64,000 nucleotides of DNA, taken from Yuukianura sp. NJ FZ-2021. Taxonomy: Eukaryota. How positions within the stretch are numbered: the first letter of the stretch is position 1; the number at the start of each line of letters is the position of its first letter. The notes below the pieces were generated by a model. It had not been told where the DNA came from and searched no databases. It was given only the letters and a program-made list of their open reading frames with translations. The stretch lies in contig CM102287.1 in NCBI GenBank assembly GCA_046563655.1, positions 2,418,001-2,482,000 of the forward strand, read 5' to 3'. Shown piece after piece: positions 1,034-14,300 of the stretch. A program made the position numbers and the translations under genes.

Positions 1034-3197
1034 ATGGAGTCTCTGCCGAATGTGTACAGGTACCAGTACAAATACTTCCATCCTACTCCCATCTTCCCAA
1101 TGGTCGCAAATCCCGTGAGTGAAAAACAACATTTTGAAAAAACCCATCACTTTCTAAAATTTATCCTGAAACAATGTTTGAATTTTGAATTTTGAAATTC
1201 GTTTTTTTGAGTATAGGCGGATCGCCTGTGTTTCCGATACGGTGGAAGATGTAGCCTGGAACCCTGCTCTCATAACGTTATGAGTGCCGCGGTGCTGGGT
1301 CAAGCTGAAAATCAACTCAGGTCAAATTTCAACTCTGTCATTCCTTGGAAAATTCCGGATACTGGAAATGCTGGTAGCATTTTTGCAAAGAAGGAATGTG
1401 CTTGTGGTCGCCAGTAAGTTTTTAGTACTTTCCCAAAATTAAAAAATTTAATTTATCATGAAACTTGAAATTTCGAAATTTAAACAGCAGAAACAACCAA
1501 ATTGGGAATCAGTTGACGGAAAACTTTGTTTCGGGTCATCTGGCCAGGACGAATGTGAGACACGGTCAAAGGTCAGTTTAAAAAAGTGAAATTTGAAAAT
1601 CTTCAAGAATAATTTTCACATTTCCCTTAAAATTTTCTGGACTAACTTTTTGAATATTTTTTTTTGAGTTACTCCGTGCGAGATTGGAACTGGAACACGC
1701 ATGACCTTTGCAGCGGCGCTTCCTCTGTCCACAACGCTGTCCAACTTCTGGAAGATGAGACTAAAAAGTGCATTAGTGAAGTGTGCAAAGAGCAACTGCG
1801 CAGAAGCATCGACACTGCAGATGACCTCAGTGTCAGAATCACCGACATTGCAAACTGGACACAACAACTACGGTTAGAGAAGGAACAAAATATCAAATAC
1901 ACTTACATGCTGGAAAACCTAAGACACAGAGTTCTACAAATGATTAAAGTAACATTTCCAAAAAATTACTTTTTCAAAAAATACTTTTTCAAAATTTCAA
2001 TTCATTTTTTGAATAAATTTTCCTAGAATATTGAAACTCCGCTGGGAATCACCAAAGAAAATTTGATGACACGGAAGATTCGGCAGGGGGTGGAGTTGGT
2101 TCACGACGAAGTGGAGAGAGCTCTGCTGAATGAAGTATTTGACCTCGACCTTGACCTCGTAACCTCTGTTGACCTTTGACCTTTGACTGTTTTTAGGTTG
2201 AAATTTTTGAAAAACGGAGGGAAATCCTGGTGGGAGAAAGTGAGAGAATTGCAGAGCAAATCAATAGGCTCAGAGATGCTCGCCACGAAATCGAAGTTGA
2301 TTTGGAAAAGAAAGTGCAGGCAAAAGAGACTGACGAAAGAGTCCAGCGTCTGTCCACGGCATCCAGCCACATCGGATCAATCCGAATTCCACCACCTTAT
2401 GCCATGTAAGCCAAAGGTCAAAGGTCAAACTAAAGTTCATGTCACTTTTGAATCTAAAGGCACAGTTCACCAACTTCTTGGGTCCAGTACACCCAGAACA
2501 TTCTCCAAAAATCTCAAAATGAGCGCAATTTGAGTAAAATCCTGGAGACAGAAGTGGTGAAAGAAATGAGGGGAGCAGCAGAAGAGTGCACCACAGCTTG
2601 GCACTGGACAAATTCAGCTTTCAAGTCTCGTCTGGCAGATATCGGGGGAGGTCAAGGTCAACTGGAGCAGCACATTAAAAAGTTAGACAAGGACATAAAT
2701 ACTCTCCAGCTCAACATCGCTGAAGTCCAAAGAACCATTGCCTCCAAAGTTCCTGTTCTACATGTAAATTTTCAAAATTTTGAAAAAATTTAGTTTTTTG
2801 TTTTGAAAAACTTACTTTTGAAAATGGTTCTTAGTTGGCCCAAACGCGACTGGACAAGAGGAAGGAGCGCCCAGGTCTGGAACTTTGTCGAGATGGTCCG
2901 ATGGTTTCTCTGTTAGGTGAAATCCACGTAGTGCAGAGGGGCCTTGACCTCTTGACATCCAAGGACCTTGAGTTGAGGGGGACCCTTGAACATCTACTCA
3001 AAACAAAGTCCACTTTGGAGCGTGACTGGCGCTTGAAGTGTAACGCTGTCACGGTGGACAGTGACAAATGCCTGTCCCTTAGACTAGCAAATCCAATTTC
3101 CCCCTTCATTGAAGCAAATGCGAGGAGTTGGGGGAACAATCAAATAGAAATGGACTATTTACCAGTTCCAGCAATCTGTGCTACAACTCGAAAATAA
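1034..3197 (+). CDS. Tektin (axonemal coiled-coil protein), multi-exon
   Basis: Tektin signature RPGLELCRD in the last exon (AQTRLDKRKERPGLELCRD) and coiled-coil exons. Upstream exons 1034-1114, 1217-1413, ~1488-1571 and 1669 onward join in frame through canonical GT/AG sites. The start codon is inferred. Confidence 0.85.
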
Positions 3198-3507
3198 ATT
3201 ACATTTAATCACAATCACATTTAACTTTAACTATAATTAATTACATGTAATTACTCAAACTACTAATTATAAAATAATTCATCTTCATAAGAACGTGACG
3301 CAAATGACGCTCAACAGGTTGAATTTTTGAATTTTTGGAAAGGCGCCAAAGTCAAATCAAAACCGGAAACACATGTTTGAAATCTGAGAGAAAACGGCTG
3401 GCTGTGTGCTTTTCCGTATTCCGTCCTCTAATTGTGATTAATTAGTTTAGTTAATTAGTTCGATTAGTTATTTTTTTTGTATTTAATTGTTGCTGGTTCA
3501 ACAAAGA

Positions 3508-4599
3508 ATGGAGCTAATCATTTCGGATTTGGACAAGAACGAAGTGGATCCCTGCCTGGACAGGTCAGAGGTCAAGGCGACATGGGGCCACGGAGACGTC
3601 GGAATTGTTCTAAGAAACGACATTTATGGCAACTATGTCGTCGCTGCGAGACTAATTGAGGAAGGTGAGCTCATTCTTGAGGAGTTTCCGCTATCCGTTG
3701 CCACTTACGGGAAAGCTGACTTGTTGCCATTCTGTCTTGCCTGTGGAAAGGACCTTGCTCTGTCCGAAAGATGTACCAAGTGTCGCTGGCCTATTTGCGA
3801 CAACGGAACGTGTGAAAACGTAACACAAGTTCAAAAATACGTTTTGGTTTACATAAAATACGTTTTGATTTACATGGATTTTGACTGTTTTACCACAGGA
3901 TCCTCTACATGCTGACGGGGAGTGTCCAATCTTTGTGTCCAATGACGTTCGACCGAAGAAGTTGAGCCAGTCTGAGTACGGTGCTGTGGAAGTTCTGCGT
4001 GGACTGCTCATGCGATCAAGGAATCCAGCAGGCTGGAAACGAATTCAAACGTTTGAAGCTCACGCGACGGGTAGACGAGAGTCGGAAGTGGCGAAAGCAG
4101 ACACGGACTTCATCGCTCACTTTATTCTGAACAAATGCAAGTTGACACAGTTTGACCTCGACACGATTGACAAGGTCATTGGAGTCTACTGCGTCAATAC
4201 TTTCTGGGCTCAGAGGGATACTGGCAAGTAAGTCACACTTTTTTTAAGACTTGACATTGACCTTGAATATTTCTTGAGTTTCATTTTGTTTTTAGAAACA
4301 TTTCTTTGCTTTTTGACACAACTACTCTGCTGCCGCATGACTGTGATCCAAACACGAGACGTGACATAGTTGAGAAGGAAGTGATTATGGCTGGATCCAT
4401 TCGGAAGTCAATGTGCATTCAAATAGTAGCAGACAGAACAATTGAAGCTGGAGAAATCATTAGCACTTACTACACAACCATCACAGACGATGTAGTCAAA
4501 CGACAAAAGTATCTCAAAGAGGCATTCTACTTTACATGCAACTGCAGAAGATGTGTCAGAGAGCTACTGGAAAACATGGACATCAACGGCAACGTTTAG
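3508..4599 (+). CDS. SMYD-type SET/MYND-domain protein (arthropod SmydA/msta-like), 3 exons
   Basis: Split SET (YGNYVVAARLIEEGELIL ... HDCDPN ... IEAGEIISTYY), MYND-like CLAC..CTKCRWPIC...C...H...EC, and post-SET FTCNCRRC. Confidence 0.85.
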
Positions 4600-6198
4600 G
4601 ATTTTTTAAAAACTCAATTTCAAATCGAGAATTTTACAAATTTTTGGTGCTTTCACTGAATTCTTTCCACTCTTCCACGTTTTCTTCCAAAAGTTCATTC
4701 TTGTGAAACTCAAACTGGAGATTTTTTAACAAACGTAAACTAAACTTTCCAAAGCTATCTAAAAACAAAACTAATATTTTTCTTGAAAATAAAAAAGGAA
4801 TTGAAAACTAACTAGTTTTTATCTAATAAGCACTTCACTAATGTGTAGTTTTAGATAAAAGTGAAAGTATGGATTACAAGACTAAGGTTGTGAGGGGTGA
4901 AAGTGATAAATTGGTTTTGTGATTTGAACTGACAGTCAAAGTGATAGACTTTTAGCCTAAAGTCATAGACTTTTAGTTTTAGTTTGAAGTCATAGGCTTT
5001 TGGTTTTAGTCTTTTTGGAGGTGTGAGGTGTTGAGCCCCTGCTTTTCCCCTTGAGCTCCTTGGTTGAAGAGGGAGAAAGTTGTGCTTTCACCGCCACACT
5101 TCAACAAGCGAAAGTGTAAGAAGAGAGTGTGAAGTTAATGGAACATGACGGGGAATTACTGTCATGTTTTCACTTTCTCAAACTCACAACCTTCCAACTG
5201 ACCTTGTACTCACTACTTTCTCCAATCTACTAAGCAAAATAAAGTCAAAATGAGAAAATAATTACAGCTTTAACACAATTTTTACAACATTAAATAAACT
5301 TGAATCTTATCAAAAAATACGATCGCACTTTGTGCTTAGTTTTTTGCTTTTTGGATTCTAGGAGAGTTTGTAAAATTAGTTGAAAAAAACTTTGTTAGAG
5401 GAGAAAGTGGTGTTTGGGGAGAAAGTGATGGTGAAAAGTGGAGTTGGTGAATTTGGAAGTGGCGATGGATGTTTTGGGAGAAACATGGGAAGTGAATTTG
5501 AAAAACACTTTCTCATAAATTCTTAATCCAACTAAATCCCCACTTTCACACAACTTCACTTTCACTCCAATGTCCGAACTTTCTTCATCTCTATCCCAAA
5601 AACCGCTTTTCTGGAAATTTTACTCAAAGTAAACGCCATTCAATTCAAAATTTAGACTAAACAGGTTTAACAGTGGGGTAAAACAAAAAAAAAAGGCGCT
5701 GGATCATTTGAGTTTTAGCAAAAGTGAAAGATGAATTTGAATTTTGAGTTTGATGTTGTGCCTAAACTTTCAAAGAGAAAAGAAGATGAGTTTCCCAAAT
5801 TCAGTTTTCTTCCTAATCAACCTCATTCCAAATTCCTTCATCTTTCTCCTCATCTTTAAAACTTTAGACATGAAGGTTTTAGAAAGTGGGTACTTGGTCC
5901 CACCTGCTCTCATGGTGGGTTCCATTCAAAAACAAAAGCCCCACCACCAGGCCCCACCATCCCAATTAAGTCATGGCTCAAAAGTTAAATGAATCTTTAA
6001 TTCTTATTTCCATGGAAACGGCTGGATGCCGGTGAGAGAAAATATTTGATGTAAAATTACAAATTTGTTGTGCTATTTCTACAATATTTGTCTTTTTCGG
6101 AAGGAAAGGTCTTCAGAAGAGGAGTGTCTAAATTTCTAAATTCAAAATTCTAAACGTCAAGTCCAACTTTTGAACACAAACTAAATTCTAAATTCAAA

Positions 6199-6899
6199 AT
6201 GTCAAACTGCTGCTCGGTATGTATGAAACAGACGAAATTTGGAAACAGCTAACTTGAAATTGATGCTTGATTTTTTGAACTGCAGCCTCCCTCTCCCCTC
6301 GGACGGTCTGCTGGAACTTCGTTCACTTGCTGTGTAAGTCACACTTCAACTTTAATTATTAAATTTTAACTCACATTAACTTTAATTATTAAAATAACTT
6401 AACTAATTCTTATTCAATTTATGTAAATGAAGCCCCACCCAGTGAGAAACTGCCTCTGCGTAAGTCTCTATTCAAAGATTAGCTCAAATATTTTTCACGT
6501 TTAATTTATGTTCAACTTTTTTTTGTAGCTTCCACCGAGGGATTGCGTAAGAACACTTATTACACAAATTCTTGGTTTTTCATTTAGTTCGTTTTTGAAA
6601 ATTAATGAAGATTTTAAAATTTGACAAATTTGAAAATTTGACAAATGATTGTTTAGCCTCCACCGCTTGGTTGTTGCCCCATTTGGACTACTGGTTGCTC
6701 TCCAAATGGTCGTTGCTGCTCACTCAATTGTTGCTGCGTACGAAAACTTTACACAAATTAACATTTTTTTGTAACGTTTTTACAAATTGATAGAAATTTA
6801 GTTTAAAACTGTAATTTTCAGTTGTGTCGCCTCCCGCCCTGTCCGCCTGCCTACTACGAATGTCCTCACAAATCAACATCAACTTGTGGCTCCTACTAA
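6199..6899 (+). CDS. 89-aa Cys/Pro-rich microprotein from six phase-0 microexons (6199-6216, 6286-6333, 6433-6459, 6529-6546, 6657-6737, 6822-6899)
   Basis: Six GC-richer islands in AT-rich DNA, joined by GT-AG introns, each a multiple of 3. Joined translation: MSNCCS-PPSPLGRSAGTSFTCC-PHPVRNCLC-LPPRDC-PPPLGCCPIWTTGCSPNGRCCSLNCCC-LCRLPPCPPAYYECPHKSTSTCGSY*. Confidence 0.75.
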
Positions 6900-7070
6900 A
6901 AATCACCACAAACTCCCTTCAAAAGAATACTTTTGAACAAAATCTATCGAAAGACACTCTTTTAACACACCTTTTATTTCATTACTCATGTGATTAAAAA
7001 AACATCAAAATTTAAGTAAACAATTTTTTCAAGAATGAGAAGAGTTCTTGTTTTGTGTCGCTTATGAAAT

Positions 7071-8007
7071 TTAGAAAGTGGAGTGGAGAAAGTAGAAAAT
7101 GGAGAAAAATGTTTTGTGGAAAAGTAACTTTTTGGCGGTGTTTCTGAATTTGCGTTGTGGATTTGAGATTCTGTGGATTGGGTCCACGCCCCGAGTGCAC
7201 AATGCTGCTCCGTCGCCATTCTGCAAACGTGCAGTCTGATTGCACTTCCCACTCGCACATCTCTGGTCTTGATGGTCATCGTCTGGGTCAATGTAGTTCT
7301 TGGCGTCACGAGTGAAGTTCCGGAAGTACTCGGTCACGAAGGCTTCAAATGGACGCTTCTCCATGTCCGTCGCGTACTTGGAAGCCATGAGGCTCATCAA
7401 TTCACCAATCTCTTCGTTCACGACGCTCGATCCAGAGGACGCATTCTGCACAATCTGCTCCAGTCGATCCACTTCTGGCTTAAAGTCAACGTCATAATTA
7501 AATGCACGGCTGCAAATCAAAAGGCAACGTCAGACGTCAACAAAAGCCAAAGGAGTTCGTCAACACGTCAAACGTCAACAAAATATGCTGCTTACGTGCG
7601 CTGAGTGCACACCACATTGTGTCTCACTAAACACGTCTTCGCAATTGCATAGCCCAGAAAGTCAACTTGAATGGCCACTTTGTCGTTGCAGAAACACGTC
7701 CCGTGGCCGCCTTTGTAGACGCACTCCAGCATCAGCTGTTTAGAGTCGCATACGCTGTCTGCGTTCAAACAATTTCCAAATTTTGCATTATTTGATCCAA
7801 TTGAACCATTTTGGATCAAATTGCGAAAAATTTTGAAAAGTGAAAACATTTTTGAGACTCACATCCCTCGCAGTTCTGTCCAAGGCCGCGTTTCACAACA
7901 TAGCGACTCTTGGGGGTCGTTTCCATTTCACCTTCATCTTGACCTGCTCCAGGCGTCACACGACTCACCCACAACACAAAAACTAACCAAGTTCTCAAAA
8001 AAGTCAT
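7071..8007 (-). CDS. Secreted Cys-rich protein with hydrophobic C-tail, copy A (exons 8007-7863, 7758-7596, 7509-7071)
   Basis: Signal-like MTFLRTWLVFVLWVSR, Cys module LGQNCEGYSVCDSKQLMLECVYKGGHGTCFCND..CLVRHNVVC, tail FFSIFYFLHSTF*. Splice sites are conserved across the three copies. Confidence 0.75.
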
Positions 8008-8544
8008 GACCTTTGACCTTCCGCTGCGAACAACCATATTCTTTGCACAATCACTGAAAAATGTCAAATGGACTTGTTAGTTTACGAGTTACTTGCAAAG
8101 TTAATCAAAACTCAGTAATCGTAGCAACAGTTTTTGACATGAAAATTTTTGTCCCGTTCAAGAAAAAAAATGTGGCGGAATTTGTTCAATCAAAAAATTT
8201 TCCCTGGAATGCTCACTCAATTGTTGCTGCGTAGGAACAACTTTACACAAATCACAAATTTTTGTTACATTTTTACAAATTGACAAATTCAAAAAAATTT
8301 AGTTAAAAAGTGTGGTTTTCAGTTGTGTCGTCTCCCGCCCTGTCCGCCTGCCTACTACGAATGTCCTCACAAATCAACATCAACTTGTGGCTCCTACTAA
8401 AAATCACCACAAACTCCCTTCAAAAGAATACTTTTGAACAAAGTCTATGGAAAGACAACAACACAAGTTTTATTTCATAATTCATGTGATTAAAAAAAGG
8501 AGTTTTTAAAAATTTTAGTCCTTGTTCTTTGTCGCTTATGAAAT

Positions 8545-9592
8545 TTAGAAAGTATGGCGGAGAAAGTAGAAAATGAGGAAAAGTGTTTTGTGGAAAAGTA
8601 ATTTTTTGGCGGTGTTTCTGAACTTGCGTTGTGGATTTGAGATTCTGTGGATTGGGTCCACGCCCCGAGTGCACAATGCTCCTTGGTTTATGCCATCCTG
8701 CATAAGTGCAGTCTGGTTGCACTTCCCACTGGCACATCTCTTGTCCAAATCATTCTTGCTTGTGTCGCTGATGTAGTTCTTGGCGTCACGACTGAAGTTC
8801 CGGAAGTACTCGGTCACGAACGTTTCAAATGGACGCTTCTCCATGTCCGTCGCGTACTTGGACGCCATGAGACTCATCAGTTCACCAATCTCTTCGTTCA
8901 CGACACTCGATCCCGACGACGCATTCTGCACAATCTGCTCCAGTCGATCCACTTCTGGCTTAAAGTCAACGTCATAGTTCAGTTCATGCCTACACAGCAA
9001 AAGGGAACACGTCAAACATCAACAAAAGGCAAAGGAGTCCGTCAAAACGTCAACAAAAGGCAAATGAATCCGTCAAAACGTCAAGCAAAGGTAAAGGAAT
9101 CCGTCAAAACGTGAGACGTCAACCAAAGGAGTCCGTCAAAACGTGAGACGTCAACCAAAGGAGTCCGTCAAAACGTCAAACGTCAACAAATTATCATGCT
9201 TACTCGCGCTGATTGCACACCACATTGTGTCTCACTAAACACGTCTTCCCAATAGCATAGCCCAGAAAGTCAACTTGAATGGCGATTTTGTCGTTGCAGA
9301 AACACGTCCCATGTCCGCCTTTGTACACACACGTCATCATCAGCTGACGGGAGTTGCAAAGGCTGTCTGCGTTCAAACAATTTATAAATTTTGACATTTT
9401 GGATCAAATTGCCAAAATTTTGAAAAGTGATTGTATTTTTGACTCACATCCCTCGCAGCTCTGTCCGAGGCCGTTTTTCAAAACATATCGATCCTTGGGG
9501 GTTGTTTGGATTTCAGGTTCATCTGGACCTGCTCCAGGGGTTACACGACTCACCCACAACACAACAACTAACCAACCTCTCAAAAAAGTCAT
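8545..9592 (-). CDS. Secreted Cys-rich protein, copy B
   Basis: Paralogue of copy A with the same three-exon structure and open frames (ORFs 9404-9592, 9200-9397, 8545-9015). Confidence 0.75.
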
Positions 9593-10232
9593 AACCTCTG
9601 ACTTTCCACTGCACTGCGAACAACCATATTTTATGCACTACTTAAAAATGTCAAACATGGAATTTTTGTTTTTTCTTCCCGTTTTACTTAAAAAGTTTAT
9701 CAAAACCAAGGTAACTAAACATAAATACACACGAGCTTTCTAAGGTAGTCTCACGAGCGGTTTTTTAATAAAAATTCGTGCAAAGGTTGGTTGAGGTAAC
9801 AATGATATCAAAACCTAGTAACAGTAGCAACAATTTTTCCCGTTAAAATTTTGTCCCTGAAAAAAAATGTGGCGGAATGCTCACTCAATTGTTGCTGCGT
9901 ACGAAAAACTTTACACAAATTAACAAATTTTTGTAACATTTTTACAAATTTACAATTTCATAGAAATTTAGTAGTTAAAAAGTGTGATTTTCAGTTGTGT
10001 CGCCTCTCACGTCTCACCTTGTCCGCCTGCCTACTACGAATGTTCTCACAAATCAACATCAACTTGTGCCTCCTGCTAAAAATCACCACAAAATCCCTTC
10101 AAAAGAATACTTTTGAACAAAGTCTATCGAAATACGACACTTTGAACACAACTGTTATTTCATTATTCATGTGATTAAAAAAAGAGTTGTAAAAAATTGA
10201 AAAGAGTCCTTGTTTTGTGTCACTTATGAAAT

Positions 10233-11377
10233 TTAGAAAGTGGAGTGGAGAAAGTAGAAAATGGAGAAAAGTGTTTTGTGGAAAAGTAACTTTTTGGCGG
10301 TGTTTCTGAATTTGCGTTGTGGATTTGAGATTCTGTGGATTGGGTCCACACCCCGAGTGCACAATGCTGCTCCGTCGCCATTCTGCAAACGTGCAGTCTG
10401 ATTGCACTTCCCACTCGCACATCTCTGGTCCTGATGGTCATCGTCTGGGTCAATGTACTTCTTGGCGTCACGAGTGAAGTTCCGGAAGTACTCGGTCACG
10501 AAGGCTTCAAATGGACGCTTCTCCATGTCCGTCGCGTACTTGGAAGCCATGAGGCTCATCAATTCACCAATCTCTTCGTTCACGACGCTCGATCCAGAGG
10601 ACGCATTCTGCACAATCTGCTCCAGTCGATCCACTTCGGGCTTAAAGTCAACGTCATAGTTCAGTTCGTTCCTACACAGCAAAAGGGAACACGTCAAGCG
10701 TCAACAAGAGGCAGACAAATCCGTCAAAACGTCATACATCAACAAAAGGCAAAGGAGTCCGTCAAAACGTGAAATGTCAACCAAAGGAATCCGTCAACAC
10801 GGCTAACGTCAATAAAAGGCAAATAAATCCGTCAACACGTCAAGCGTCAACAAAAGGCAAAAGAAATCCGTCAAAACGTCAACAAAGTGCAAAGGAATTC
10901 GTCAACACGTCAAACGTCAACAAAAATCCAAACGTCAAACGTCAAGAAAAGGGAACACGCCAAGCGTGAAGAAACTGTGAAATTTACTTGCGTCGATTGC
11001 ACTCCACATTGTGTCTGATCAAGCACGTCTTCCCAATTGCGTAGCCCAGAAAGTCAACTTGAATGGCCAATTTGTCGTTGCAGAAACACGTCCCATGTCC
11101 GCCTTTGTACACACACGTCATCATCATCTGTGTAGAGTCGCACATGCTGTCTGCCTTCAAACAATTTATAAATTTTGACAATTTGGATCAAATTGCGAAA
11201 AATTTTGAAAAGTGATTGTATTTTTGACTCACATCCCTCGCAGTTCTGTCCAAGGCCGCGTTTCTCAACATAGCGATCCTTGGGGGTTGTTTCGATTTCA
11301 CCTTCATCTTGACCAGCTCCAGGGCTCACACGACTCACCCACAACACAAAAAAGAAACAAGCTCTCAAAAAGGTCAT
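10233..11377 (-). CDS. Secreted Cys-rich protein, copy C
   Basis: Paralogue of copies A and B with the same exon structure (ORFs 11054-11416, 10984-11181, 10233-10697). Confidence 0.75.
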
Positions 11378-14300
11378 GACCTTTGACCTTCTGCGGTGAA
11401 CACTCAAAAATTTCAAATGGACTTTTTAGTTTCCGTTTTACTTGCAAAGTTTATCAAAACACAGTAACTTTAGCAACAGTTTTCCACAAATTTCCACAAA
11501 AATTTTTCCCTTTCAAGAAAAAAAAAATGTGGCGAAATTAGTTCGTTCAAGAAATTTTCTCTGCAGTTTGCTTTCTTTTCGATTTCCTGCCTTAATTTTC
11601 CTTTGCTAAATTTCGGTTTTCTCTTTTTTTAAAAATTTGTGCTGAAAAGTACGGCTGAAAAGAAGATGGAGTTGAATATGAAAAGAATAGTAATGAAATC
11701 AACCTAATCCTCCACGTCTCTTCATTTTCTTGAGTCTAACGTTAAGGTTGGAAGAGAAAGTTGGAGAAAGCAGCTCTGCATGATTCAATTATGCCAGAAC
11801 CTCCAACAACCTAACAAAAATATCACAAAAGTTACTTTTCAACTTTCATTATTCCAATGGAACACAGAACAACGTTTTCAAAGAATAGTTTTTCTAAATG
11901 AAATCAAAAGAAAAAGACTCATCAACTTCTTCACTCTTCTCAAAATCTTACTTTTCTCTTCATTTTATTCTAATGATTAAAAACAACAAAAATAAATCAA
12001 CTCACTTTTCATTTGCTGCATTTCACTCTACAATTTCAATTTTCTTCCGAAATTTACAAATCAAGAAAATCAGAGTAAAACTTTTTTTTGTAACTTTCAC
12101 TTTTTTTTTCAATTTTTGTGAGCTGCTGAAATGAGTAGGGCATAAAAAAACAGTAGGACGTTAAAAGCAGACAGAGATTTAAAAAGTGAGCGTTTTTTGG
12201 TTGTTTTCCTTGTTAAAAAGCGGAGAAAGTTGTACTAAAAGATCATTTGGCTGCAAAGTTTAGAGCTCCTGTTTTTTAAATTTATTTGAACAGCTGAAAA
12301 GTTTTAGTAAGCTACCTGTTGGACTGTAGCTAGGAAACTGTCACTTTTTATGTTCCACTGCTTAAACTTAAACAAATTGTGTAGAAAATTGTGTGGGAAG
12401 GAGAAAGTTCTCTCCGTTTTCCCTGATTTATGAAAGTTCTTAGTAGTGGTGGAAAGTAGACATGCAATTTGGCTAAAAAGCTTCTTCTTCTCTTTAAACG
12501 ACGACTTCAGGGAAATTTAAACTCAAATCTTAACCAAAATTTAGCGTTTCCTTGGATTTTTTGCCTTTCTCTTTTTTGTAATTTACTCCACCATCTTTTG
12601 TACTCACATGAATATTTATAACAAGAAATTTCATGGTTTCTAAATTCCATTTTCCGTCTTCTGCTTTAGTTCTTGAGAGAATCTGTTGCTCCCGTGAGAA
12701 ACTTTTTTGAATTTATGATTTCCATATTCAAAAAATACGAATCTCATCTGCTCAAGCAAATATTACTTTTTACATAAAATCAAAAAGGAAACTTCACTAT
12801 TTTTAGAACTCCAAATAAATCTTTCCACACTGAAGCTAAAAAGTTGGAAGTTTTTGAAACTACGGTTTCAAAATAAGAACAAACACCGCACTGTAATTAA
12901 AACCCGCCTTTGAACGAAGTTAATTAAAATTTTGTTTTGATTGATCGCGCTTTTCCATTGTTTGTTCAAAATCAAGCAGATCTTGTTTCCAATCCTGTCT
13001 ATTCTTCACTTTTTTCTTTTTGAAAAATAAATCCAAATTTTTGAAATGTTGATAGGAAATTGAACGACCTTTGACCTTTCATTTTGGAAATCCAAAGTTA
13101 ATTCTTTATGACACTTTGTGATTAACTTTTGACATGATGATACGTTCATGATCTCAATTAATCCATGAGATTCACTTTCACCCACACATTTGAACATTGG
13201 ATTCCAACTGTCATTTTCTGTGAGACTTTCTCCCTTAGGACATCTTAGGTTATGATTTGAGGTTATAGATTGTTTTCCATCATGAAATGAATGCTGAATG
13301 TTGTGAATTTCGGAAATAGTGACTCCCCATTCCCATTTGTTTTGGTTTTAGATGAGTTTTTGTGGAGTTGGAAGACAATGACGGTGGTTTGGGATGATGG
13401 AGGGCCGACGGGAATGGAATGTGCGAAGGATTCTGAAATTCGGATTTGAAAGGAGATGGGAACTCCATTGTCTTTGTTTCCTGGAGGCTACAAACACAAT
13501 TCACAGATTCAACCAAAGATTCTGCACTCCATCACTACGTTCTACGTAGTGATGGAGATGCACTTTCACAAAAGTTACACAAATTTCATCATTAGAAAAC
13601 TAAATTTTGTGTAGAAAAAAATATTTCAAGGAGTTTTCTTTTAGAAGTTAAAAATAGAAATTTTCATGCCCAATTTCTAGCTGAACGGCGTCTATTGTTG
13701 CAAAGTTTTTACTCGGTTTAATTTTTTTTGTTTTTTAAATAGTAAAATCAAATTTACATTGAAATTGCTAGGTTTCAATGCTGGAAATTTAGAATAGCGT
13801 TGAGTGAAAATTCTTACATACTGTGTTGTAACTTTAATTTTCACATGACAGAAATGTTAGGTTGATGATAATGTTAGGGTGATAGAAATCGAGTAATAGT
13901 GTAGTGATTAAATCCGGACAACTTCTAAACCTGATAATTTCCCATTTTTTTGATTGCGACAGGAGAATGGAAAAGTTTGTTACTTTTGAGTTTTGTGTTT
14001 TTGGATTACAGCGTAAAGCACTACAAAATTTTACTTAAACCCTCCGGGCCAAGTTAAAATTCAAACCAAGGATTTGTGGTTTGCAGAAAGTAGAGAGGAG
14101 AAAGTTCCTGTCTCCAGAAAACATTCTTCAAAAACTGTTTTCTAAAATTTCCAAAAAAACTAAACGTTTTTTCTCAATTCCTTTAAATCAAGTGTTAACT
14201 AAATGTAGATTGATTTGAGGTCAAAGGTCACTCGCCCAAGACAATACATCATTCATCATTCTGCAGTCACCTGACCTTTGTCTGTGCTCGGCTTTTGAGC

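What the first reader, a model, noticed from the sequence alone, without database searches (positions are those of the whole stretch)
6199..6899. Hidden 89-aa Cys/Pro microprotein from six phase-0 microexons
Seen: exons of 18, 48, 27, 18, 81 and 78 nt, all symmetrical. The product has 19 Cys and 17 Pro, no signal peptide, and CC/CCC clusters. Exons 2-5 each end on a Cys codon and start with P or LPP, so they are modular and skippable without frameshift. It is invisible in the ORF track. Inference: the composition resembles Cys/Pro-rich sperm-tail structural proteins or a metallothionein-like or palmitoylated peptide; tektin lies nearby.
Basis: partly seen in the sequence, partly recalled or inferred. 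Interest (0 to 1): 0.7.

Follow-up and report, generated by a model that had tools for sequence, protein, structure and literature searches.

The report
Six-exon cysteine/proline gene, likely sperm-structural
Six short DNA blocks with normal splice signals join in frame into an 89-residue protein rich in cysteine and proline; it is likely a real gene, one of about a dozen similar ones in this animal genome, and probably makes a cross-linked sperm structural protein, though no RNA was available to test this.

Summary
The six exons, five GT-AG phase-0 introns and 89-aa product (19 Cys, 17 Pro) are as stated. A self-trained, amino-acid-blind parser recovers exactly this chain; 0 of 300 block-shuffled controls score as high. 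Only exons 3 and 4 are true internal microexons. About a dozen other small multi-exon Cys/Pro genes exist in this genome; one has an orthologue in a metagenome contig with the same exon boundaries and mostly synonymous change. The window gene shares their architecture, but alignment does not prove homology (best 3 of 300 shuffles, 21 pairs). Five CNAAATT motifs, a Drosophila spermatocyte-promoter element, lie within 71 nt upstream of its ATG; 8 of 9 Cys/Pro genes tested have two or more, against 4 of 212 other starts. The sperm control is weak: 3 of 16 axonemal genes, 0 of 13 proteasome genes. Best reading: a testis-expressed, disulfide-cross-linking structural protein that works like Mst(3)CGP/SMCP but is not a member (no CGP repeat). 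Metallothionein is unlikely. Expression and exon skipping are untested. This scan found the same gene type before on other DNA of this genome.

The parts
6128..6194 (+). Five sense-strand CNAAATT motifs (6128, 6136, 6143, 6181, 6188) in the putative promoter/5' UTR; none on the antisense strand
   Evidence: motif definition from PMC7197356
6199..6216 (+). Exon 1, coding part (ATG, 6 codons, CC pair); donor GTATGT
6286..6333 (+). Exon 2 (48 nt, phase 0/0, starts with Pro, ends CC)
6433..6459 (+). Exon 3 (27-nt microexon, AAG acceptor, phase 0/0)
6529..6546 (+). Exon 4 (18-nt microexon, strongest acceptor and second-strongest donor in the region)
6657..6737 (+). Exon 5 (81 nt, CC/CC/CCC clusters; weakest acceptor)
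6822..6899 (+). Exon 6, coding part with stop codon
6993..6998 (+). Candidate polyadenylation signal ATTAAA (the only A[AT]TAAA between the stop and 7100)
   Evidence: function inferred
8210..8400 (+). Duplicate 2: last 21 nt of exon 5, intron 5 and an intact exon-6 copy (8323-8400, one synonymous change); possible alternative last exon or converted copy
9878..10079 (+). Duplicate 3: last 21 nt of exon 5, intron 5 and a frameshifted exon-6 copy (9995-10079, 7-nt insertion)

Best explanation
The six exons join in frame into an 89-residue Cys/Pro-rich protein with no signal-peptide-like or membrane-spanning stretch; it is likely a real gene, probably transcribed in spermatocytes, whose product would be cross-linked through its cysteine clusters into a structure of the sperm tail. 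Shown: the exon chain, its excess over chance, the composition, the upstream CNAAATT cluster, sister genes of the same build, and purifying-type conservation of one sister gene. Inferred: transcription and splicing of this gene; that CNAAATT means spermatocyte expression here as in Drosophila; that the protein is an extended chain in which Pro-rich spacers present CC/CCC clusters that oxidise to inter-chain disulfides (or bind zinc first) late in spermiogenesis. The Cys|Pro phase-0 joints most likely record growth of the gene by duplication of short Pro...Cys modules, not a switchboard of optional exons.
For: Gene reality. The only chain with Cys of 10% or more and a score above 26 in 464 kb of its contig, both strands. 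Sister genes: C3 cluster, C4 gene, and three more found from the motif alone, 3 of 53 loci against 8 of 800 background windows, Fisher p 0.026. The C4 sister has an orthologue in locus L204 with the same four exon boundaries and phases, both Cys|Pro joints kept, 18 of 19 Cys kept in the three ungapped blocks compared, 30 synonymous against 21 non-synonymous codon differences, diverged introns and three upstream CNAAATT. CNAAATT: 5 copies here; two or more in 8 of 9 Cys/Pro genes tested, against 4 of 212 parsed starts and 251 of 4214 AT-rich windows. In Drosophila the motif is enriched 29-60 bp downstream of spermatocyte start sites and resembles the TCE of Mst(3)CGP genes (PMC7197356, PMC3439415, passages). 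Three axonemal-family genes of this genome have Cys- or CC-rich N-termini in the parser's models.
Against: Homology of the window protein to the sister genes is not shown: best local-alignment z 2.7 (3 of 300 shuffles) among 21 pairs tested; 2 of its 6 comparisons exceed z 2. The orthologue evidence is for a sister gene, not this one. The motif is not a general sperm-gene marker here: 3 of 16 axonemal-family genes against 0 of 13 proteasome genes, with several start codons evidently misplaced; tektins and radial-spoke genes had none. Of the dispersed tandem-motif loci, most lie before unrelated or unidentifiable sequence. Six of the eight motif-positive genes sit in one cluster and are not independent; one Cys/Pro gene (L100) has no copy. 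PMC3439415 reports that TCE conservation drops sharply even in distant Drosophila species, and the motif is A/T-rich in an A/T-rich genome. No Cys-Gly-Pro repeat (0).
Confidence: 0.55

Rival explanations
1. A real gene for an intracellular cross-linking protein of a somatic tissue (epidermis, bristle or sensory cell), analogous to keratin-associated or cornified-envelope proteins; the shared motif would then mark another tissue or common descent.
For: The composition (21% Cys, 19% Pro, CC clusters) fits such proteins as well as sperm proteins (PMC10791643 groups SMCP with SPRR-type epidermal proteins by composition). The sperm control for the motif was weak.
Against: The one shared non-coding signal matches a published spermatocyte element. 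No signal peptide, so it is not a cuticle protein (hydropathy).
Confidence: 0.17
2. A palmitoylated peripheral membrane or adaptor peptide anchored by its N-terminal CC pair and internal CC/CCC clusters.
For: CC at residues 4-5 and six CC pairs in all. That N-terminal CC pairs are palmitoylated in other proteins is recalled, not tested.
Against: No Gly2, no hydrophobic segment (best 15-residue hydropathy 1.13), no Pfam match for exon 5 or 6. Cys is spread over the whole chain and the whole family.
Confidence: 0.1
3. A metallothionein-like metal-binding peptide induced by metals.
For: Small, intracellular, 21% Cys.
Against: 0 MRE (TGCRCNC) on either strand within 1 kb upstream, whereas the springtail Orchesella MT promoter has 4-6 (PMC1913499, passages). 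Five aromatic residues and a His, 17 Pro, 1 Lys, only 2 CxC; MTs generally lack aromatic residues and His (same paper, which notes exceptions). No Pfam MT match on exons 5-6.
Confidence: 0.08
4. A non-functional relic or chance alignment of GC-rich blocks and splice-like sites.
For: No transcript or homologue of this particular gene was obtained. Some splice sites are weak, and parts of the locus are duplicated, one copy frameshifted.
Against: 0 of 300 in the null; an unbroken frame over six exons; every intron carries an in-frame stop if retained while the exons have none; sister genes of the same build, one conserved across species.
Confidence: 0.08

Closest known systems
Drosophila Mst(3)CGP family (Mst84Da-d, Mst87F)
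   Same: Small Cys/Pro-rich proteins in a clustered family, spermatocyte-transcribed, with a TCE/CNAAATT-type element near the start; deletion disturbs axoneme and nebenkern (PMC10645079 and PMC3439415, passages).
   Different: No Cys-Gly-Pro repeat (0 here), Gly only 7%; six coding exons with phase-0 Cys|Pro joints; no sequence homology shown; expression untested.
Mammalian SMCP and the Pro/Cys-rich epidermal-differentiation-complex proteins (SPRR, LELP1)
   Same: Small size (recalled) and Pro/Cys-rich composition; SMCP and LELP1 are testis-enriched (PMC10791643, passages).
   Different: SMCP arose in placental mammals (same paper), so any likeness is convergent; no Pfam or sequence match.
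Schistosome micro-exon genes (MEGs; recalled, no call)
   Same: Several very short, frame-symmetric exons in a small gene.
   Different: MEG products are secreted with a signal peptide and skipping is documented; here there is no signal peptide, only two internal exons of 27 nt or less, and no evidence of skipping.
Springtail metallothionein (Orchesella cincta mt)
   Same: Small Cys-rich intracellular protein.
   Different: MRE-rich promoter in the known gene (PMC1913499) against 0 MRE here; aromatic and Pro-rich composition here.

Membership tests
Mst(3)CGP | Repetitive Cys-Gly-Pro motif | tested here: not met
   0 CGP in the window protein; feature from PMC10645079
Mst(3)CGP | TCE/CNAAATT-type element near the transcription start | tested here: inconclusive
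   5 CNAAATT within 71 nt upstream of the ATG; the transcription start is unknown and the motif's meaning in this genome is only weakly controlled
Mst(3)CGP | Male-specific transcription in spermatocytes | not testable with these tools
   no RNA run could be laid on the locus
Mst(3)CGP | Sequence homology to Mst84D/Mst87F | tested here: inconclusive
   single-exon searches found no credible relative; the whole protein was not searched
Metallothionein | MRE cluster in the proximal promoter | tested here: not met
   0 TGCRCNC on either strand in 1 kb
Metallothionein | Lack of aromatic residues and His; CxC-dominated spacing | tested here: not met
   5 aromatic residues, His present, 2 CxC, 6 CC; the spacing criterion is recalled
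Metallothionein | Metal binding and metal induction | not testable with these tools
   needs an experiment
Micro-exon genes (MEG type) | Signal peptide and secretion | tested here: not met
   best 8-residue hydropathy in the first 30 aa 0.88; a hydropathy scan, not a signal-peptide predictor
Micro-exon genes (MEG type) | Isoform variation by skipping of symmetric microexons | not testable with these tools
   frames allow it; no transcript data
Cys/Pro multi-exon gene set of this genome (C3 cluster, C4 gene) | Composition, short exons with phase-0 Cys|Pro joints, upstream CNAAATT cluster | tested here: met
Cys/Pro multi-exon gene set of this genome (C3 cluster, C4 gene) | Alignment-level homology | tested here: inconclusive
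   best z 2.7, 3 of 300 shuffles, among 21 pairs

The most novel reading that the evidence does not exclude
The Drosophila spermatocyte promoter/5' UTR element (TCE, CNAAATT) is an ancient hexapod signal. In this small arthropod it is arrayed in tandem before a dispersed, unannotated family of a dozen or more Cys/Pro sperm-tail genes built from phase-0 Pro...Cys exon modules, and this gene varies its cross-linking by skipping modules or by using a duplicated last exon.
Probability: 0.25. Interest if true: 0.68.

Novelty: new variant of a known kind. Interest (0 to 1): 0.42.

Why it matters
Genes of this build are invisible to ORF scans and to homology-based annotation, so a whole class of small structural proteins may be missing from arthropod gene sets. 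If the upstream motif does mark spermatocyte expression, it extends a regulatory element so far found in print here only in Drosophila papers (4 of 4 listed for 'CNAAATT') to a distant lineage, and it gives a way to find such genes: three were found from the motif alone. If it does not, this is one more orphan Cys/Pro protein of modest interest.

Tried and rejected
RNA: no RNA holder was listed, so no reads were laid; this is no evidence either way. The whole spliced protein was not searched against protein collections or folded; only single exons were, so relatives visible only with the full length remain open. Exon 5 against 1.84 billion representatives gave one hit, P0001, a 607-aa tandem-repeat translation that sums eight weak stretches: rejected as chance. 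Atlas: best score 0.84, leads only, for exon 5, and no usable hit for the C4 sister exon. Pfam: nothing for exons 5 and 6, nor for 13 of 13 sister-gene stretches. A homologue search with the C3 sister's last exon found none; the tektin exon found none among longer proteins, so the taxon was not fixed. Own-genome protein searches with exons 5 and 6 found only the local copies. A loose ATG...CC...donor pattern was swamped by a satellite; 12 of the first 100 listed places were fetched by eye, and one held a Cys/Pro gene. The tandem-motif pattern gave 2572 matches, mostly a 59-bp satellite; only dispersed matches among the first 100 listed (C1 to C7) were followed, and three already known Cys/Pro loci were left out of the 53 counted. 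One C3 cluster gene (near L123:5448) was left out of the motif count because its start codon could not be fixed. The Fisher value for '6 of 6' omits the motif-negative gene L100 and ignores clustering, so it is not used. Three genes gave no chain in the control (one tektin, two proteasome subunits). A repeat shared by the upstream regions of one C3 sister gene and a FAM166-family axonemal gene looked like a common promoter, but it has 23 matches before many unrelated genes and is absent from the window: rejected. A strong alternative acceptor at 6587 would leave a 41-nt intron followed by a stop: rejected from the sequence. Literature searches that found nothing; one search listed 3 papers, none relevant by title and abstract start, not opened. 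The position matrices of the TCE are in supplements of PMC3439415 that could not be read; a matrix scan could change the motif counts.

Full report
Setting. The window lies on contig C5 of a 98.7-Mb, 22-contig genome with short A/T-rich introns (median 79 nt in the self-trained set). Earlier AI notes call the organism springtail-like; I did not test this (one search found no relative of the tektin exon).

The observation. The six exons are at the stated coordinates with GT-AG introns, all phase 0, and give 89 aa with 19 Cys and 17 Pro. Exon GC is 50-63% and intron GC 18-33%. I trained donor, acceptor, length and composition models without supervision on 496 introns from the flanks, leaving out window 5800-12000 (the set still contains some false introns). 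Its score is 59.3, against 7.4 for the opposite strand and a mean of 7.1 (maximum 29.6, 0 of 300) when each exon and intron block is shuffled in place. In 464 kb of the contig, both strands, no other chain has at least 10% Cys and a score above 26. Five of five phase-0 introns has probability 0.02 at the local phase frequency, and four of five joints preceded by Cys has probability 0.009 at the protein's own Cys content. Only exons 3 and 4 are internal microexons in the strict sense. Skipping is allowed by phase (16 of 16 combinations) but is not observed.

Local duplication. A unit of about 1.6 kb that begins in the last 21 nt of exon 5 and carries a convergent minus-strand gene occurs three times. 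In copy 2 the coding stretch differs from the original at 1 of 99 bases (synonymous) and intron 5 at 12 of 83 (Fisher p 0.0007). In copy 3 the figures are 6 of 99 with a 7-nt frameshift against 7 of 84 (p 0.58). Copy 2 may be an alternative last exon or a recently converted copy. Conversion is plausible, because the neighbouring gene's last exon is 1.6% from copy 3 but 10% from copy 2.

Sister genes. A pattern for a short exon that starts Pro-Pro and ends Cys|GT gave 5 matches (control 9); one is a four-exon, all-phase-0 gene of 157 aa with 17% Cys and 17% Pro on C3. A CCC|GT pattern gave 15 matches (control 20), among them a similar gene on C4. The counts are not above the controls; the genes were recognised by parsing. 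Walking out from these showed a cluster of about seven such genes on C3 and a phase-2 variant on C1. An exon of the C4 gene found one relative among the public proteins, whose contig is L204. There the same four exons have the same phases and both Cys|Pro joints. In three ungapped blocks 18 of 19 Cys are kept, with 30 synonymous and 21 non-synonymous codon differences, while the introns have diverged. So genes of this build are real and conserved. The window protein, however, aligns to the others only weakly (best z 2.7, 3 of 300 shuffles; 21 pairs tested), whereas C4 and one C3 gene are clear homologues (z 11.3). It shares the build; shared descent is likely but not shown.

Upstream motif. 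I noted a shared A/T-rich word before the ATG of the window gene and the first C3 gene (note) before parsing the other genes. It matches CNAAATT, which in Drosophila is enriched 29-60 bp downstream of spermatocyte start sites and resembles the TCE of the Mst(3)CGP sperm-tail genes (PMC7197356, passages; PMC3439415, passages, abstract, introduction and first results section; supplements unreadable). In the 150 nt before the ATG the window gene has 5 sense copies and no antisense copy. The six C3 genes with a fixed start have 4, 5, 2, 2, 2 and 2, the C4 gene 2 and the C1 gene 0, so 8 of 9 have two or more. The background is 4 of 212 parsed starts (some of which are internal ATGs) and 251 of 4214 windows under 40% GC; 1 of 8376 windows has five. 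The L204 orthologue has 3. Searching by a tandem form of the motif alone, 3 of 53 new dispersed loci had a Cys/Pro gene on the sense strand just downstream, against 8 of 800 background windows (p 0.026); 2 of the 53 had a Cys/Pro stretch on the antisense strand. Against the sperm reading: only 3 of 16 axonemal-family genes (one SHIPPO and two FAM166-type) had two or more copies, against 0 of 13 proteasome genes; tektin and radial-spoke genes had none, and several start codons in that control are unreliable. Most tandem-motif loci precede unrelated or unidentifiable sequence, and TCE conservation is reported to fall off within Drosophila (PMC3439415, abstract).

Mechanism. Shown: the chain, its composition (CC six times, CxC twice, no CGP, no hydrophobic segment), the motif cluster and the sister genes. 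Inferred: transcription in spermatocytes from a promoter whose 5' UTR carries the motif; constitutive splicing of six exons; an extended Pro-spaced chain whose Cys clusters oxidise into inter-chain disulfides in a sperm-tail accessory structure. This is how Mst84D-type proteins are thought to act; their deletion disturbs axoneme and nebenkern (PMC10645079, one passage), while the disulfide step is recalled. Mild support comes from Cys-rich N-termini on a radial-spoke, a FAM166-type and a tektin model in this genome. I put the gene's reality at about 0.9 and this mechanism at 0.55. Metallothionein is unlikely: no MRE in 1 kb where the Orchesella gene has 4-6 (PMC1913499, passages), and the protein is rich in Pro and aromatic residues. 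A somatic cross-linking role (0.17) and palmitoylation (0.10) remain open.

Known kinds and novelty. It works like Mst(3)CGP or SMCP (PMC10791643, passages) but fails the CGP test and shows no homology, so it is not filed as a member. Searches for a description of such genes in springtails or of phase-0 Cys-rich microexon genes in arthropods found nothing relevant (search listings only), in a library that lacks most subscription journals. This scan had already noted a seven-gene cluster with a shared upstream motif and a 16-exon gene of the same kind elsewhere in this genome (unchecked AI notes, read after my own analysis). What is added here is a cross-species conservation test for one sister gene and a quantified, partly controlled link to a spermatocyte element. 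Verdict: a new variant of a known kind, interest 0.42.

Noticed in passing
window 7071-11425, minus strand: A gene in three tandem copies converges on the Cys/Pro gene (last-exon ORFs 7071-7529, 8545-9018, 10233-10700). It has a signal-peptide-like start and no Pfam match above cut-off, and its copies show patchy identity that suggests gene conversion. Its candidate poly(A) signal (6973) and the Cys/Pro gene's (6993) imply overlapping 3' ends.
   Followed up: partly
   Followed up: partly
L060:1199-2006 and L204:499-1185: C4 Cys/Pro gene and its orthologue in a metagenome contig with conserved exon boundaries and upstream motif.
   Followed up: yes
L169, L178, L179 (downstream of the tandem motif); L186 (antisense): Further Cys/Pro multi-exon genes; exact models for L169, L178 and L186 were not fixed.
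   Followed up: partly
L276-L298: Dispersed repeat of at least 200 nt with a fixed 3' end (23 matches), often just upstream of genes, including one C3 Cys/Pro gene and a FAM166-type gene; likely a non-autonomous transposon.
   Followed up: partly
L274:1113-1500, L211:1026-1500, L223: Axonemal-family genes (radial spoke 4/6, FAM166-type, tektin) whose parser models begin with Cys-rich or CC-containing extensions; the radial-spoke one has repeated CxC.
   Followed up: no
G000 C2:90640-91775, C2:9220443-9220805, C6:55643-58213, C7:5039108 onward: A 59-bp satellite contains the tandem CNAAATT word and accounts for most of the 2572 matches.
   Followed up: no
L155:1330-1437 (minus): Short IQ-motif exon (Pfam IQ, E 0.005, below cut-off) followed by a Lys-rich stretch, 78 nt after a tandem CNAAATT; resembles flagellar IQ proteins (recalled).
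   Followed up: partly
window 1646-3197 and 3487-4599: Tektin gene and a SET-domain gene upstream of the finding.
   Followed up: partly
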